Virus record (IMG/VR): IMGVR_UViG_2716884425_000003
Span: 48,768-112,767 of that record
Length of the DNA: 64,000 nucleotides
Source: a virus
Reading direction: 5' to 3' (one strand)
A program made the translations under genes and the position numbers. Of the stretch, positions 7,531-56,982 are shown in pieces. The notes under the pieces were generated by a model that saw nothing but the letters and a program-made list of their open reading frames with translations, searched no databases and was not told the origin of the DNA. Each line of letters begins with the position of its first letter. Positions within the stretch are counted from its first letter, which is position 1.

Positions 7531-8396
7531 GTCAAGTCATAATCATATTCATATTTACCTAGTACATGGTCTGACACTTTAATAAACTCATATAAAGTTC
7601 CATGCTGCGCAGTGCCCACCTGAGCAAAGGTTCCATTTTGGAAAAGTACAGAGTTCCAAGTTAACGAAGCTCCCGCTGTTGCTCCAGCAGTTGTCATCTC
7701 AACCAAAACAAAAATCTTCTGACCCTTAGATATGTTAGAAAGACTTATCGCCCCAGAGGCAGACATTTCAATATGAAAAACGTCTGTAGTCGAACAGTCA
7801 AGCGTTATGTCTCCAGACATTGCTACTGCGGCATTAGTTCCACCCCTAAAAGAGGTACTGCCACTTGGTCCAGTCGGACCGGTGCTGCCCTGACTGCCAG
7901 ATGGCCCTGTCGGCCCGCTTGGTCCGCTGCTTCCAACTGGTCCAGCCAGATTAAGAATCCAATTGTTTATTGTAGCGGCGCCAGTTAAAGATAAAATTTT
8001 ACCAACCAATGCGCTACCATTGTAAGAGGTTACCTCAAATATAATTTTGTGGTCTGTAAAGCCCGAAGAGTTGGTTGTAGCTATCACAGTTTGGCCAGCG
8101 GTCCAATTCTTCAAAGTATCTGTAGCGAAAGTTATTGTTGCGTTTACCTTAACATTCGTAGTGTCACCAAAATTTATTGATGTATTTGAAGTTCCTTGGT
8201 AACTAGCAGCTGGTCCCGTGGCTCCAGCATCGCCCGAGGGCCCCGTGGGCCCCTGCGCCCCCGTAGGACCCGTGGCTCCCCCAGCGCTGCCGACTGGACC
8301 GGCGGGACCCGTAGCTCCAGCCGGACCCGTCGCTCCCAAATTGCCAGACGGCCCTGTAGCTCCGACGATATTACCTAAATAAAGAGTATTATTCAT
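7527..8396 (-). CDS. Collagen-like (G-x-T/P repeat) fibre protein
   Basis: Two GATGP/GPTGP/GPSGP blocks flanking a beta-rich domain; N-terminus MNNTLYLGNIVGATGP. Confidence 0.8.
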   Translation of the reverse strand: MNNTLYLGNIVGATGPSGNLGATGPAGATGPAGPVGSAGGATGPTGAQGPTGPSGDAGATGPAASYQGTSNTSINFGDTTNVKVNATITFATDTLKNWTAGQTVIATTNSSGFTDHKIIFEVTSYNGSALVGKILSLTGAATINNWILNLAGPVGSSGPSGPTGPSGSQGSTGPTGPSGSTSFRGGTNAAVAMSGDITLDCSTTDVFHIEMSASGAISLSNISKGQKIFVLVEMTTAGATAGASLTWNSVLFQNGTFAQVGTAQHGTLYEFIKVSDHVLGKYEYDYDLT

Positions 8397-9280
8397 TAAA
8401 AGCCTATGAAGTTCATTTTATTAATTTTGATTGACGGCGTAGGATTGCCAGAAGGAAAGCTTAACTTATAATATCTAAAGGTCTCAGTATTACTTAAAGA
8501 ATAATTAAATTTACCAACGATGTAAGATTGATTAACTCTAGTGTCTAAAGTTGAATAAGTTGAATCGTTATCTGATCCCATTAGGTGCCAACTAACAGGA
8601 GCGTCACCCGTTGAATAAACATCAATGTAGTATTTCGTTACAGTTTTACTTTTCCCAACGCCGTAGTCCACTTTTAAATCGACAGTTTGATACACTCCTC
8701 CAACACCTGTAGTTTGAGCCTCCCAATGGGTACCAGTATTTCCGTCAAAGACATTACTTGCTGCACCACCTAAAGTATTCGATCCAGTAATAGTTAAGCT
8801 GGTAGTAACAGTTTCAACGTCAATTCCGCCTATACCTGCTGGACCCCTTGGGCCTGTAGCGCCGACTTCTCCAGTTAAACTAACATTCCAAGAGCTATAG
8901 CTAGTGATACCGTCTTTAAACGAAATTGTACCAATAATAATTCCAGTAGTAGAATCGTAACTCGTTACATTTAGAACAATAAAATCTCCCGCATCAATAG
9001 CGGCCGCGATCAACAATACTTGACCCGTTCCCCAACACCGACCAGCACTAGCATTAATGGTTATAGTGTTACCTATAGTTACGGATGCTAGATTGATAGT
9101 ATCGCTACTTGTACCATTGCAATTAGGCGCTGGACCTGTTGCGCCCGAAACTCCCGAGGGTCCAGTGGGACCGGTAGCGCCGCCGGGACTTCCACTGGGT
9201 CCAACAACACCACTAGGGCCAGAAGGCCCCGTCGGACCTGTTGCTCCCAATATGTTTCCTATATATAAATTATTAGACAT
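8396..9280 (-). CDS. Collagen-like fibre protein with C-terminal F5/8 type C (discoidin)-like domain
   Basis: GATGP repeats; NVFDGNTGTHWE...LKVDYG...APVSWHLMGS...FRYYKL discoidin pattern. Confidence 0.8.
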   Translation of the reverse strand: MSNNLYIGNILGATGPTGPSGPSGVVGPSGSPGGATGPTGPSGVSGATGPAPNCNGTSSDTINLASVTIGNTITINASAGRCWGTGQVLLIAAAIDAGDFIVLNVTSYDSTTGIIIGTISFKDGITSYSSWNVSLTGEVGATGPRGPAGIGGIDVETVTTSLTITGSNTLGGAASNVFDGNTGTHWEAQTTGVGGVYQTVDLKVDYGVGKSKTVTKYYIDVYSTGDAPVSWHLMGSDNDSTYSTLDTRVNQSYIVGKFNYSLSNTETFRYYKLSFPSGNPTPSIKINKMNFIGF

Positions 9281-15632: not shown

Positions 15633-16019
15633 TTACCTGCCTTCTTCTAGAATTTTTCTAATTTTGTCCGGAACATCTAAAGGATTTTGAGGTTCTCCGG
15701 CTGAAGAGGGCCTTTTATAAGAAGATACATGCACTTTAAACTCTCTGATAAGTCGAGCGGTTAATTGCTGCATATTATCAATCGGTAAAAGACCGACTCT
15801 CACCGCTTCGTTTTTTAAATCAGATTTGGACATATTGCCTAAAACTTGTTCGTACACGTTGATGTCCATAGTTTTATATAAGGACGTACCATCATCGCCC
15901 CACACTTGATCTAGTGTAGACGGCTGAGTTTCTGAGGTTTCATCAATGGCCATGCCGTCTGTTTCAGACATATCCTTTAATGTAACTTTTTTCTTACTGC
16001 TACTTTTTTTTCTAGGCAT
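15633..16019 (-). CDS. Hypothetical protein
   Basis: ORF track 15633-16043; probable start MPRKKSS at 16019. Confidence 0.65.
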   Translation of the reverse strand: MPRKKSSSKKKVTLKDMSETDGMAIDETSETQPSTLDQVWGDDGTSLYKTMDINVYEQVLGNMSKSDLKNEAVRVGLLPIDNMQQLTARLIREFKVHVSSYKRPSSAGEPQNPLDVPDKIRKILEEGR

Positions 16020-16055
16020 AATTATTAGACTCAGCCGACACACAATTTAGTTTAC

Positions 16056-16330
16056 TTGGCAATGCGGTGCATACCACACTGTTAGTACGCTGCACTAATC
16101 ATGTTGTCCAATGTTGTTATCGCCGCTTTTTTAATTACGACTTCTACATGTCGCCATGCAGTTCGGACTATATCTTCGCTTTTTACAGCGTTGGGCGCTC
16201 GTGGAGGGGTTATTGTTGGGACTCACCCTCTAGTCTCTACACCTTCCGGAAGCACTAAGCCCACTTCCGACTTGGCTCGGTATTGTCTTCTGGAGATGTC
16301 TACCGAATTCACCCAATAAGGCCAATTTAT
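16056..16330 (-). ncRNA. Group I intron-type ribozyme, intergenic, apparently circularly permuted (P1 downstream of core)
   Basis: Minus strand: P3 UUGGGUG(16316-10)/CGCCCAA(16197-91); P4 UUCGGU/ACCGAG; R GUAGAGACUAG (16240-30); P8 CGCU-GUAAAA-AGCG; S AAGAUAUAGUCC (16176-65); P9 UGCAUG-GCGA-CAUGUA; candidate omega-G 16109; P1-like hairpin with U.G at 16081-16060. Confidence 0.88.
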
Positions 16331-16336
16331 TTATAT

Positions 16337-16365
16337 ATTATATACTATATTTTGGTGTTAGTCAA
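16337..16365 (-). promoter_or_regulatory. Consensus sigma70 promoter driving the group I RNA
   Basis: TTGACT-17 nt-TATAAT on the minus strand. Confidence 0.85.
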
Positions 16366-16372
16366 ATTATTA

Positions 16373-17812
16373 TTATAAATACCCTTCAAAGGTCTCTGAT
16401 GAATCACAATTAGTTTTTAGGCTTAATAACCCACCAGCGCCGCTTAAATCAGGACTGTAATAATATAAGTTGATATCACCAGTTTGATTATTGTTAATTA
16501 CGATAGACTCTCCGGGAATAGCGCCTGTATTAGTTGCGGTTGGCGCATCAATGATATTAATTTTACCACCCATGTAAGCATGATTATTACATACATAATA
16601 CAAAGTATCAGGAGCCCTACCCGGAACGGTAAAGGCGATATAGTTAGTTCCAACAGCCACTCCACTTTCGTAAAGATTTCCTGAATCTCCACCGCCGGAA
16701 GGATCGGTAGCAATTCTTAAAGGATGTCCATCATTACTAGTTCCAGTCTGATAGAAATAGTAAGTAGAGTCTCTTCTCAAAGAAATTTCTGCTCCTTCAT
16801 CATATCCAAATCCACTAACGTTTATGCCGGTAGCAGAACCAGAAATACCGCTTAAGCCATATCCGTTCGGAGAGCCACTGTACATATATGGGTGTCCATC
16901 GTCTCCCGGGCTAGAAACCGCAGTCTTTGTTTGCACAGACACGTCATAATATGCAGTCTCTGGAGATACAACATAAGAAACACCACTGGTATAATCTGAG
17001 AAACCATTATGAGATCCATCCACTCCAGTACTTAGCCTAAATCTATAACCACTAAACGTAGCGCCTGCGCCCGTGGGCCAGTCTGTTGTAACTTGGTTTC
17101 CACTTTTTAAATTAATTAAATATCTTCCCGAGGTACTAAGTCTAATAGGAAATTGATCAAAACCATCAATCATAAAGTTGTTAGGCGATCGGGCATCTAA
17201 ACTTACATCAATAGTCTCATCATGACAAGAGTAATCAATTGGCTGAGAATAATACTCACCAGTCCTTGTTGCGTAATATACGTCATATTCACTAGCCTCC
17301 GGTAAAGCTTCAACAGTTCCAGATACATGCTTGTATGTAACGATTTCATTTACTGTAAACTCGATATAAGGATGAGGCTGTTGCTTTGTTCCATTGGGAT
17401 TAAGACCGGGCTGCTTTACGTCACTCGAATGATCGTCCCAATACTTTTTATAAAATGATTGAAAAGCTTCGTTTTCTGTTACGTCATAACGATATTTTTT
17501 GATGCTAGCTTGATCATTCTCTACGTATCCATAAGGATAGCTTTTTTTAATTTCTTCGTAAATTGCATCGGCTTGAGCTTTGGTTAAGGTGCTATCGTCT
17601 TTGTATTTCCAAAATCTATTTCCGTATCTATCGAAAGAGTTATTTACGCCACCTGCCCTAGTGAAAGCAACTTTGTCTATAGCCAATAACTGAACAGGCT
17701 TTAAATAAAATCTGGGAGTACTATCAGTGGTTCTATTAAAGGAGTCTTTATTAAAATAAAGATGAACCTTAATACTAAAGCTTCTATTAATTTTATTAGT
17801 CTTAAAACTCAT
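16373..17812 (-). CDS. Virion protein with cupredoxin-like C-terminal domain
   Basis: TYYFYQ...GHPLRI...FTVPGRAPDTLYYVCNNHAYMGGKINI motif (His...Cys-x2-His-x2-Met). Confidence 0.6.
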   Translation of the reverse strand: MSFKTNKINRSFSIKVHLYFNKDSFNRTTDSTPRFYLKPVQLLAIDKVAFTRAGGVNNSFDRYGNRFWKYKDDSTLTKAQADAIYEEIKKSYPYGYVENDQASIKKYRYDVTENEAFQSFYKKYWDDHSSDVKQPGLNPNGTKQQPHPYIEFTVNEIVTYKHVSGTVEALPEASEYDVYYATRTGEYYSQPIDYSCHDETIDVSLDARSPNNFMIDGFDQFPIRLSTSGRYLINLKSGNQVTTDWPTGAGATFSGYRFRLSTGVDGSHNGFSDYTSGVSYVVSPETAYYDVSVQTKTAVSSPGDDGHPYMYSGSPNGYGLSGISGSATGINVSGFGYDEGAEISLRRDSTYYFYQTGTSNDGHPLRIATDPSGGGDSGNLYESGVAVGTNYIAFTVPGRAPDTLYYVCNNHAYMGGKINIIDAPTATNTGAIPGESIVINNNQTGDINLYYYSPDLSGAGGLLSLKTNCDSSETFEGYL

Positions 17813-56406: not shown

Positions 56407-56982
56407 AAAAAAATTGAGGCGGCTGTCGGCGTTGTTGCTTCCAATCACTTTAATGGGTTGACCAACCTCAAATTATCTAAATTAGTGGGAAGATGGATTG
56501 CTGCATTACCATCAAGACCAGTACACAATACAGTTCAGTTTTACCAGTCTACTAAAACTACGAGAGTCATACGATTGCACTCTCTCAAGTAGCCTCATGC
56601 CTTTCCCCTTATGGTGGAGGGATATTCAGCCATTCCCTTGGGGCAACCGTCGCCGCCCCAAAATTTATAGCCCTCGGTTACGACAAGGTCTGCCGACCAA
56701 GTCTCGCAAGGACATCCTGCCTGTGCCACATGACTGCACCCAGCTTTGTGCGGATTGCGACTCCGCTGTCTCTAAGGTTTCGACACCTTAAAGGCTGAAC
56801 AGGATTAAGTTATTGCATAGGCCGCTACCTCTACGGGCGTTTAGTGTTCTTCACCTATGCTGCTGGTGCTTCCTCGTCCCTAACAGGGCGCGTACCCTGT
56901 TCGCTACGTTAGGCTTGCCAAGACTGTGTTTCGTCTCCCAGCAAAATTGTTTCAAAGATCGTGGAGGTGTTACCCTCACTGT
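56407..56982 (-). ncRNA. Large (~575 nt) highly structured non-coding RNA of unknown class
   Basis: Dedicated promoter (56989-57017), no credible minus-strand ORF, >10 hairpins and multibranch stems whose G.U pairs work only on the minus strand, terminal stem plus U-run. Confidence 0.75.

What the first reader, a model, noticed from the sequence alone, without database searches (positions are those of the whole stretch)
16056..16365. Stand-alone, apparently circularly permuted group I intron with its own promoter
Seen in sequence: between two intact genes lies a complete group I catalytic core on the minus strand (P3, P4, P6/P6a, P7 with a P7.1-type insert, P8, S element AAGAUAUAGUCC, P9 with GCGA loop closely resembling T4 td P9, P9.1, and a td-like 3' end AACAACAUUG with omega-G ~16109). 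A perfect TTGACT-17-TATAAT promoter starts the RNA ~15 nt before P3, so there is no 5' exon and no local P1. Downstream of omega-G comes a 33-nt segment (16108-16076, with an internal hairpin). It ends in a canonical P1: CAGUGU|GGU-augc-ACC-GCAUUG, with the U.G wobble at the splice site and 6 exon/IGS pairs. Next comes GCCAA (16060-56), which can pair with UUGGC at the 5' end of the RNA (16325-21) as a split P2. Inference: a natural permuted intron-exon (PIE) layout broken in L2. Splicing would release a 33-nt RNA circle and put an exogenous G on the 5' end of the downstream mRNA (gene 16019). PIE group I constructs are an engineered tool and natural permutation is described for group II introns; I do not know of this layout in a phage. 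Alternative: an exon-less ribozyme using 5' GCCUUA as a trans-acting guide. P10 pairing is weak in both models.
Basis: partly seen in the sequence, partly recalled or inferred. Interest (0 to 1): 0.93.

Follow-up and report, generated by a model that had tools for sequence, protein, structure and literature searches.

The report
Stand-alone, rewired phage group I ribozyme
Uncultured aquatic phages carry a complete self-splicing-type RNA enzyme that lies in no gene, has its own promoter and sits just ahead of a gene's start codon; its wiring suggests it cuts that message free and may release a 76-nt RNA ring, a layout I found in print only for engineered RNAs and one coral mitochondrial intron.

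Summary
The group I catalytic core is real: Rfam RF00028 scores 57.9 bits, and every core helix is supported in 25 relatives. It is a stand-alone unit. A near-consensus promoter ends 9-22 nt before the RNA's conserved 5' segment in 26 of 29 relatives. In two sister subfamilies the upstream gene is on the other strand, so no 5' exon can exist.

His "P1" hairpin is a real, covarying helix, but its U.G occurs in only 6 of 25 sequences. His split P2 is mismatched in 13 of 25.

Instead, the 5'-terminal UYGGCC (16325-16320) pairs with GGCURA (16036-16031). That site lies 2-35 nt before the downstream start codon. In 41 sequences the flanking pairs covary and the G.U wobble never changes. That is the signature of a group I cleavage site, with the guide at the RNA's 5' end.

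Best reading, inferred and untested: GTP attacks after U16033 and frees the mRNA. Then omega-G16109 allows ligation of a 76-nt ring (16108-16033).

So the permuted, own-promoter idea survives with different splice sites, a break in L1 and no P2. This scan flagged a similar permuted layout on other DNA (e1-5318461). I found no publication describing it.

The parts
16360..16365 (-). -35 hexamer TTGACT of the element's own promoter
   Evidence: 11 of 12 sigma-70 match; 26 of 29 family members have a match of at least 9 of 12 at the same place.
16337..16342 (-). -10 hexamer TATAAT. The inferred transcription start is near 16330.
   Evidence: The -10 ends 9-22 nt before GGCC in relatives, so the RNA starts 0-13 nt before the guide. 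The start site itself is inferred, not mapped.
16320..16325 (-). 5'-terminal guide UUGGCC (strand X of helix Pc). G16323 is the G of the invariant G.U wobble.
   Evidence: it pairs with 16036-16031. The wobble is G.U in 41 of 41 sequences, while the neighbouring pairs covary.
16317..16319 (-). 3-nt joiner (UUA; AUA or GUA in relatives) between the guide and P3
   Evidence: Its first base is not conserved, so it is not a splice-site U.
16144..16316 (-). Catalytic core. P3 16316-10/16197-91; P4 16306-01/16282-77; P5 16296-94/16288-86; P6 16276-75/16242-41; P6a 16270-64/16252-46; P7 16235-31/16170-66; P7.1 16230-26/16208-04; P8 16190-87/16180-77; J8/7 16176-71; P9 16161-55/16150-44.
   Evidence: RF00028; per-helix covariation; the core is 77-97% identical in relatives whose neighbouring protein is 44-95% identical.
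16122..16141 (-). P9.1 hairpin with the conserved A-rich loop AAUUAAAAAA
   Evidence: helix 11.
16109..16111 (-). UU of P9.0 (pairs with 16163-16164) and omega-G (G16109). The predicted 3' splice site is 16109|16108.
   Evidence: pairs A-U 24 of 25 and G.U 25 of 25. UGG is invariant.
16095..16108 (-). 5' strand of Helix A (strand Z), starting directly after omega-G
   Evidence: it pairs with 16050-16037, with many compensatory changes. A 3-bp extension G-C, A-U, Y-R abuts helix Pc.
16060..16081 (-).
   Evidence: helix 13: all 9 pairs change on both sides, and there is no conserved U.G; loop UGC (16071-69) may pair with GCA (16093-91); one compensatory change supports this.
16037..16050 (-). 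3' strand of Helix A (first part of strand S)
16031..16036 (-). GGCUGA, the 3' strand of helix Pc. U16033 is the U of the invariant wobble. The predicted guanosine-attack site is 16033|16032.
16033..16108 (-). Segment between the predicted 3' and 5' splice sites: 76 nt, the predicted RNA ring
   Evidence: its length is 75-77 nt in all 25 main-family sequences; it folds as a rod with a 4-nt GGCU tail. The ring itself is inferred.
15633..16019 (-). Downstream gene (128 aa, Lys-rich N-terminus, function unknown). ATG 16019 lies 13 nt after the predicted cleavage site.
   Evidence: 44 homologues; same synteny in relatives; no family match.
16373..17812 (-). Upstream tail-fibre-like gene (479 aa). 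It is complete and is not a host exon.
   Evidence: phrog_677; its 3' end is unrelated in sequence among relatives that all carry the ribozyme.

Best explanation
This is a stand-alone, promoter-driven group I ribozyme built into the leader of a phage gene, with its substrate helix rewired.

Shown. The RNA starts a few nucleotides before a 6-nt guide (UUGGCC, 16325-16320), which runs through a 3-nt joiner straight into P3. There is no P2 and no 5' exon. The guide pairs with GGCUGA (16036-16031), about 280 nt downstream and 13 nt before the start codon. That helix carries a G.U wobble that never varies. Omega-G (16109), P9.0 and the whole catalytic core are under strong purifying selection. The 76 nt between omega-G and the wobble U fold into a long helix that brings the two sites together.

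Inferred. As in the first step of group I splicing, free guanosine attacks after U16033. This releases the downstream mRNA with an extra 5' G and a 13-nt leader. The freed U-3'OH then attacks after omega-G (16109|16108). The guide bases that had paired with 16032-16031 re-pair with 16108-16107 as P10. This joins 16033 to 16108 into a 76-nt dumbbell-shaped ring and leaves the ribozyme linear.

Formally this is a permuted intron-exon layout broken in the P1 loop. Functionally it would be a GTP-dependent leader-processing module, with a small RNA ring as a second product.
For: - Core: RF00028 at 57.9 bits. All 13 helices are kept in 25 relatives (98.3% paired, 32 doubly changed pairs, 0 of 500 shuffles). 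RNAalifold independently finds Pc, Helix A, H and P9.0.
- Stand-alone: the promoter is conserved in 26 of 29 relatives and ends 9-22 nt before GGCC. In subfamilies B and C the upstream gene is on the opposite strand.
- No host RNA: ribozyme-less relatives have only a terminator, a promoter and an SD leader.
- Selection: the RNA core is 77-97% identical where the neighbouring protein is 44-95% identical.
- Cleavage-site signature: in 41 sequences from four subfamilies, pair 14/302 is G-C, A-U or U-A. Pair 12/304 is C-G, U.G, U-A or A-U. Pair 13/303 is G.U in all 41. The G lies on the strand that leads 3' into P3, which is the guide position.
- Position: the site is always 2-35 nt before the start codon, in front of three unrelated gene families.
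- P10: the guide bases 12/11 can pair either with the two bases after U303 or with the two after omega-G. In L094 both partners changed together to U, opposite A12.
- Length: the inter-site segment is fixed at 75-77 nt.
- From established knowledge, not a tool result: ribozymes that begin at the guide (Tetrahymena L-21) are fully active, and permuted group I constructs make exon rings.
Against: - No cleavage, GTP addition or ring has been observed. The metatranscriptome contigs laid on the region showed no joints, and one contig runs uncut across omega-G.
- Four of the six Pc pairs are invariant in the main family, so invariance of the wobble there is not special on its own. The argument rests on five subfamily C sequences with a changed pair 14/302.
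- Omega-G is attached directly to Helix A, four base pairs from the wobble. The second step therefore needs the 3-bp extension to melt.
- P10 is only 2 bp.
- In subfamily C the segment between the two sites is not conserved in sequence. This argues against a sequence-specific role for the ring.
- The transcription start is inferred, not mapped.
Confidence: 0.45

Rival explanations
1. One-step processing at omega-G only. The ribozyme has lost P1. Helix Pc and Helix A act as a P2/P10-like clamp, and the RNA is cut at 16109|16108. The cut would be by hydrolysis, or by a branching reaction like that of the lariat-capping (GIR1) ribozyme. The mRNA would keep a long structured leader, and the ribozyme could then dissociate and unmask the start region.
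For: Omega-G sits exactly at the nick between two coaxial helices, and the bases around the nick are invariant in the main family. As in the lariat-capping ribozyme, the 5' and 3' ends pair and a P10-like helix follows omega-G (architecture from my own knowledge; the family is described in PMC4167309 and PMC3679873). 3' splice-site hydrolysis is a known side reaction of group I introns (own knowledge).
Against: There is no Rfam GIR1 match even at E<=1. The nick-adjacent pairs and the direct abutment are not kept in subfamily C, whereas the G.U wobble in Pc is. An invariant wobble flanked by covarying pairs has no role in this model. In L031 and L063 the start codon would lie 2-4 nt after a very stable stem, a poor place for initiation.
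Confidence: 0.2
2. A structured leader or small RNA without catalysis. A domesticated or relic group I fold would be kept for RNA stability or translational control, by sequestering the start region in helix Pc. No reaction would take place.
For: Pc lies next to the start codon. One metatranscriptome contig is continuous across omega-G. Only the conserved core is seen in RNA libraries.
Against: Catalytic elements that a mere scaffold would not need are invariant across four subfamilies: the J8/7 consensus, the P7 G-site region, the J4/5 adenines, omega-G with P9.0, and the wobble. The core is far better conserved than the neighbouring proteins.
Confidence: 0.12
3. A conventional intron in a 5' leader. 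The first ~16 nt would be the 5' exon, spliced at 16320|16319 and 16109|16108, with the guide supplied by the 3' exon (16050-16031). The spliced leader would be one long perfect hairpin.
For: The geometry is exactly that of P1/P10 before the second step. The continuous strand 16050-16031 pairs with 16325-16320 and with 16108-16095, with omega-G at the nick.
Against: The pair at the would-be 5' splice site is C-G in 41 of 41 sequences, never U.G, and the next base varies among U, A and G. No intron-less allele of such a hairpin RNA was found. The product would place the start codon directly after a ~20-bp stem. The abutment is not conserved in subfamily C.
Confidence: 0.08
4. A trans-acting ribozyme. 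The 5'-terminal guide would recognise a host or competitor RNA ending in GGCU and cleave or trans-splice it.
For: The guide is at the very 5' end, as in engineered trans-cleaving ribozymes (own knowledge). The promoter is strong.
Against: A perfectly matched cis target is always present and covaries with the guide. A 4-nt recognition sequence gives no specificity.
Confidence: 0.05
5. One reading: P1 is the hairpin 16081-16060 with a splice site at 16076|16075, P2 is split as UUGGC/GCCAA, and a 33-nt ring is released.
For: In the window itself the pairings can be drawn, including a U.G.
Against: That U.G is present in only 6 of 25 relatives. The P2 pairing is mismatched in 13 of 25 and competes with the hairpin's closing pair. 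The 33-nt segment is half of a conserved long-range helix.
Confidence: 0.03
6. An ordinary intron at the 3' end of the tail-fibre gene, with P1 at 16397-16375 as Rfam aligned it, or a decaying intron that lost its exon.
For: The Rfam alignment places a 9-bp P1 over the stop codon of the upstream gene.
Against: That sequence is not conserved in any relative, and Rfam starts its match at different places after the stop codon. The promoter lies between it and the core. Splicing would only trim or swap up to five residues. In subfamilies B and C there is no co-directional upstream gene. The core is under purifying selection.
Confidence: 0.02

Closest known systems
Phage group I introns of the T4 td/nrdB type (subgroup IA2 with a P7.1 insert), and the terminase and RNR introns found here (Proteus phage 3H10_20, Lelliottia phage phD2B, Pseudoalteromonas phage H101)
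   Same: Same catalytic core. Stretches of 37-85 nt are 77-97% identical. The J8/7-P7 consensus, P7.1, the GNRA-capped P9 and omega-G are shared.
   Different: Those introns interrupt coding genes, have a local P1 with a 5' exon and a P2 hairpin, and often carry a homing endonuclease. This element lies in no gene, has its own promoter, no P2 and no endonuclease. Its P1 partner lies about 280 nt downstream.
Engineered permuted intron-exon (PIE) constructs from the Anabaena and T4 td introns (own knowledge; reviewed in PMC4344496)
   Same: The 3' splice site precedes the 5' splice site on one transcript. A helix brings the two sites together. The predicted product is a small circular 'exon'.
   Different: PIE constructs are broken in a peripheral loop and keep P1 intact on the downstream half. 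Here the break is formally in the P1 loop, and the 'downstream intron half' is simply the mRNA. This one is natural and is conserved across about 40 sequences.
Trans-acting Tetrahymena L-21 type ribozymes (own knowledge)
   Same: The RNA begins at the internal guide sequence, which binds its substrate through a short helix with a G.U wobble. Guanosine attacks after the U.
   Different: Those are laboratory truncations acting in trans. Here the substrate is the RNA's own 3' tail, and omega-G with a 3' splice site is retained.
Allosteric group I ribozyme in the 5' UTR of a Clostridioides difficile mRNA (Lee et al. 2010; summarised in PMC3984707, section 10)
   Same: A group I ribozyme domesticated in a leader. 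Processing next to the start codon decides what the translation start region looks like.
   Different: That ribozyme has the normal order (5' exon, P1, core) and is controlled by a c-di-GMP aptamer. No aptamer family was detected here, and the order is permuted.
Lariat-capping (GIR1) ribozymes of twin-ribozyme introns (PMC4167309, PMC3679873; mentioned in PMC8637638)
   Same: A group I-derived ribozyme placed just upstream of an ORF, whose 5' and 3' ends pair and which processes the 5' end of that mRNA.
   Different: GIR1 is eukaryotic, nested in another intron, has a remodelled core and branches three nucleotides after omega-G. This core is canonical, there is no Rfam GIR1 match, and a P1-type wobble is kept.
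Back-splicing giant group I intron in mushroom-coral mitochondrial ND5 (Chi et al. 2019, PMC6545197, as cited in PMC8637638) and circularly permuted group II introns (PMC8637638)
   Same: Natural ribozymes whose permuted order leads to back-splicing and circular products.
   Different: The coral case restores a coding mRNA on a circular precursor. The group II case is a different ribozyme class. Neither is a phage leader module.

Membership tests
Group I ribozyme (Rfam RF00028) | Core helices P3-P9 with the P3/P7 pseudoknot and the J8/7-P7 consensus | tested here: met
   57.9 bits against a cut-off of 50; all helices kept, with covariation, in 25 sequences.
Group I ribozyme (Rfam RF00028) | Terminal omega-G defined by P9.0 | tested here: met
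   A-U and G.U pairs immediately before the invariant G16109. UGG is invariant.
Group I ribozyme (Rfam RF00028) | P1 substrate helix with a conserved U.G wobble, the G lying on the internal guide | tested here: met
   G.U in 41 of 41 sequences with covarying neighbours. It is met only in a rewired topology, with the guide at the 5' end and the U about 280 nt downstream.
Group I intron (as an intervening sequence) | Interrupts a host gene whose exons are joined into a functional RNA | tested here: not met
   Both flanking genes are complete. The upstream gene is on the other strand in subfamilies B and C. No intron-less host allele was found.
Group I intron (as an intervening sequence) | Guanosine-initiated self-splicing | not testable with these tools
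   This needs in vitro transcription or RNA-seq with raw reads. The contigs show no joints.
Permuted intron-exon (PIE) layout | 3' splice site upstream of the 5' splice site on one transcript | tested here: met
   Omega-G is at 16109 and the wobble U at 16033 on the minus strand. This holds if Pc is P1.
Permuted intron-exon (PIE) layout | Circular exon product | not testable with these tools
   No junction reads were available.
Lariat-capping ribozyme (GIR1) | Match to the family model | tested here: not met
   RF00028 is the only Rfam match at E<=1.
Lariat-capping ribozyme (GIR1) | Nested in a twin-ribozyme intron upstream of a homing endonuclease gene | tested here: not met
   There is one RF00028 match in the 136.5-kb record. 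The downstream genes are unrelated phage proteins.
Allosteric (riboswitch-coupled) group I ribozyme | Ligand aptamer fused upstream of the ribozyme | tested here: not met
   Only 0-13 nt precede the guide, and there is no aptamer family match.

The most novel reading that the evidence does not exclude
Phages have turned group I ribozymes into portable, promoter-linked leader modules that work as natural permuted intron-exons. GTP-dependent attack at a guide-defined site just before the start codon would release a short-leader, 5'-G-tagged mRNA. The second step would then make a defined 76-nt circular RNA with a function of its own, for example a stable decoy or regulator. At least four subfamilies sit in front of unrelated genes.
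Probability: 0.3. Interest if true: 0.92.

Novelty: new variant of a known kind. Interest (0 to 1): 0.85.

Why it matters
Group I ribozymes are textbook selfish introns. Apart from the C. difficile allosteric ribozyme and the eukaryotic lariat-capping ribozyme, they are not known to have been recruited as gene-expression devices.

Here a catalytically intact core is conserved better than the neighbouring proteins in at least four phage subfamilies. It is always placed between a promoter and a start codon, with its substrate helix rewired. If it acts as predicted, four things follow.
- It would be a natural counterpart of the permuted intron-exon method now used to make circular RNA.
- It would be a natural 'insulator' ribozyme that sets an mRNA 5' end.
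- It would be a source of small circular RNAs in bacteria-phage systems.
- It would be a clear case of an intron domesticated into a regulatory module.

It would also link expression of a phage gene to guanosine nucleotide supply. The prediction can be tested directly with one in vitro transcript.

Tried and rejected
- Rfam's own P1 placement inside the tail-fibre gene end. Rejected: it is not conserved, and it lies upstream of the promoter.
Rejected by covariation.
- Helix A's G16100.U16044 wobble as the cleavage site. It is kept in 24 of 25 main-family sequences, but it is U-A in L062 and absent in subfamily C.
- The idea that the ribozyme interrupts a small hairpin RNA gene. The ribozyme-less relatives L024-L026 have only a terminator, a promoter and a GGAG leader. 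A scan for the 3'-domain motif gave only chance hits in coding DNA.
- Cultured relatives. There is no tblastn match for the downstream protein in 50,697 phage records, and only weak tail-fibre-like hits for a neighbouring structural protein.
- Pseudoalteromonas phage H101 looked like a possible cultured example. It carries conventional tandem introns instead.
- RNA evidence. Four marine metatranscriptome runs gave short contigs over the conserved core only (16068-16320), with no joints. One contig is continuous across omega-G, so this is uninformative on processing.
- The 14-mer scan of bacterial genomes returned essentially chance matches, so no host was identified.
- An all-against-all column covariation scan found no further convincing tertiary pairs. 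The one exception is a possible 3-bp contact between the hairpin H loop and GCA 16093-91.
- tRNA-like reading of the 76-nt segment: ARAGORN finds nothing.
- Single-sequence folding is weakly informative, with a z-score of -2.0.
- Literature searches found no description of this layout in phages or bacteria.

Full report
WHAT IS THERE. On the minus strand lies a 354-nt gap between a complete tail-fibre-like gene (16373-17812, phrog_677) and a conserved 128-aa gene that starts at ATG 16019. Rfam finds a full-length group I match in this gap: RF00028, 57.9 bits, E 4e-12. It is the only group I match in the 136.5-kb viral record and the only Rfam match in the region even at E<=1. A TTGACT-17-TATAAT promoter lies at 16365-16337.

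RELATIVES. The downstream protein has 44 homologues in marine metagenomes. Contigs encoding six of them, at 50-87% identity, all keep a 335-366 nt gap with an RF00028 match. Relatives at 41% identity have a 116-nt gap holding only a terminator, a TATAAT promoter and a GGAG leader. Exact-motif scans of viral and metagenome contigs added more copies. In all I used 29 distinct main-family sequences and three further subfamilies:
- B: L034, L037, L059.
- The L131 type.
- C: L082, L089, L094, L100, L110, L123, L161, L166.

No cultured phage carries the neighbouring gene. The nearest nucleotide matches in cultured phages are conventional introns in terminase or other genes.

IT IS A STAND-ALONE UNIT UNDER SELECTION.
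- In 26 of 29 sequences a sigma-70-type promoter (at least 9 of 12 matches, often 11-12) ends 9-22 nt before the conserved GGCC. The transcript should therefore begin 0-13 nt before the first conserved RNA segment.
- The sequence upstream of the promoter is unrelated between relatives. Rfam's placement of 'P1' over the stop codon of the tail-fibre gene is therefore spurious.
- In subfamilies B and C the upstream gene is on the opposite strand, so no 5' exon can exist.
- The RNA core is 77-97% identical between phages whose neighbouring protein is 44-95% identical.

SECONDARY STRUCTURE. On a 25-sequence alignment (A1) I tested 13 helices. 98.3% of cells pair, 32 pairs show changes on both sides, and 0 of 500 shuffles or any of the slid controls come close. 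RNAalifold adds P9.0: 16163/16111 and 16164/16110, directly before omega-G16109.

(i) The bases right after omega-G (16108-16095) form a long-range helix, 'Helix A', with 16050-16037. It shows many compensatory changes. RNAalifold finds its central part (16104-16094 with 16051-16040) independently.
(ii) His 'P1' hairpin (16081-16060) is real, and all nine pairs covary. The proposed splice-site pair is U.G in only 6 of 25 sequences.
(iii) His split P2 (UUGGC/GCCAA) is mismatched in 13 of 25.
(iv) The 5' end UYGGCC (16325-16320) pairs instead with GGCURA (16036-16031). I call this helix 'Pc'.

The strand 16050-16031 is continuous. Helix A and Pc therefore stack end to end, with omega-G at the nick.

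THE KEY OBSERVATION. I tabulated Pc in 41 sequences from all subfamilies. Positions are numbered from 16335 as position 1.
- Pair 14/302 is G-C (35), A-U (3), U-A (2), or mismatched (1).
- Pair 12/304 is U-A (22), C-G (9), U.G (9) or A-U (1).
- Pair 13/303 is G.U in all 41.

An invariant wobble flanked by covarying Watson-Crick pairs is the hallmark of the group I 5' cleavage site. The G lies on the strand that runs 3' through a 3-nt joiner into P3, which is where the internal guide sits in introns that lack P2. The U lies on the other strand. That strand always ends 2-35 nt before the start codon of the next gene. The next gene belongs to three unrelated families.

MECHANISM (INFERRED). Guanosine attacks after U16033, releasing the mRNA with an added 5' G and a 13-nt leader. 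Guide bases 12 and 11, which paired with 16032-16031, can pair equally well with 16108-16107, the two bases after omega-G. In L094, where base 12 is A, both partners are U. This is the usual P1-extension/P10 exchange. The U-3'OH would then attack 16109|16108 and close a 76-nt ring. The segment is 75-77 nt long in all 25 main-family sequences. It folds as a rod whose GGCU tail would become a tetraloop.

Everything in this paragraph is inference from anatomy and from established group I chemistry. Nothing has been observed.

WEAKNESSES.
- Four of the six Pc pairs are invariant in the main family, so the wobble argument leans on subfamily C.
- Omega-G is tethered four base pairs from the wobble, so the 3-bp end of Helix A must melt for the second step.
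- P10 is short.
- In subfamily C the inter-site segment is not conserved in sequence. The ring may therefore be a by-product rather than the point.
- Metatranscriptome contigs cover only 16068-16320, show no joints, and include one that is continuous across omega-G.

RIVALS. I rate cleavage only at omega-G (hydrolysis or lariat-capping-like branching) at 0.2. I rate a non-catalytic structured leader at 0.12.

COMPARISON WITH WHAT IS KNOWN.
- The core is that of IA2-type phage introns.
- The topology resembles engineered PIE constructs and guide-first trans-ribozymes.
- The placement in a leader recalls the C. difficile allosteric ribozyme (PMC3984707).
- The pairing of the RNA's ends and the mRNA-processing role recall the lariat-capping ribozyme (PMC4167309).
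- Natural back-splicing is in print for a coral mitochondrial group I intron and for permuted group II introns (PMC8637638).

I found no paper describing this layout in phages or bacteria.

EARLIER NOTES OF THIS SCAN. Unchecked AI notes report a 'permuted group I ribozyme predicted to circularise a 73-nt RNA just ahead of a virion gene' in another large phage (e1-5318461). They also report several differently permuted group I ribozymes around coding exons in prophages (for example e1-2303837 and e1-3769393). The first matches my reading in general terms. None of them is independent evidence.

VERDICT. This is a new variant of a known kind, and interest is high.

Noticed in passing
window 56482-56660 (minus strand): A manA RNA motif (RF01745, 69.5 bits) lies inside the stretch that another first-stage note (e1-5348312) calls a ~575-nt ornate non-coding RNA. 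Part of that 'new' RNA is therefore a known family.
   Followed up: no
L004 1453-2418 (Pseudoalteromonas phage H101, KR534323.1 about 8019-8984): Three RF00028 matches (66, 54 and 80 bits) lie head to tail in an 860-nt stretch. The first two lie entirely in unannotated DNA between two 'hypothetical' CDS, and the third runs into the small downstream CDS. This is probably a gene split by three introns and not annotated as such.
   Followed up: partly
L100 11653-12040 and L166 3064-3452: The viral contigs that carry subfamily C ribozymes also encode a full-length tmRNA (RF00023, 105 bits).
   Followed up: no
L082, L089, L094, L100, L110, L123, L161, L166: 20-45 nt upstream of the ribozyme: Subfamily C has no sigma-70-like promoter. 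It has instead a conserved TGTAA ... AGTTC motif pair, in several loci preceded by an inverted repeat (TTACAC...GTGTAA). This may be a phage- or host-specific promoter or operator.
   Followed up: no
L024 2884-3001 (a relative without the ribozyme): The homologous gene is preceded by a clean terminator, a TATAAT promoter and a GGAG Shine-Dalgarno leader. Ribozyme-bearing relatives mostly lack a recognisable SD. The ribozyme module seems to replace an ordinary leader.
   Followed up: partly
window 16068-16320, runs X1, X3, X5, X8: At least 15 marine RNA libraries hold part of the stretch. In the four that were laid, contigs cover the conserved ribozyme core but not the flanking genes. The RNA may be abundant or stable, or only the conserved part may match relatives.
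   Followed up: partly
window 16069-16071 with 16091-16093: The loop of hairpin H (UGC) can pair with the conserved GCA just after Helix A. L032 changed both sides (C-G to U-A), which hints at a small pseudoknot inside the 76-nt segment.
   Followed up: partly
window 16163-16168 with 16106-16111: GUCCGA (the P7 3' strand plus J7/9) is perfectly complementary to UUGGAC around omega-G. This alternative pairing would break P7 and could act as an off-state.
   Followed up: no
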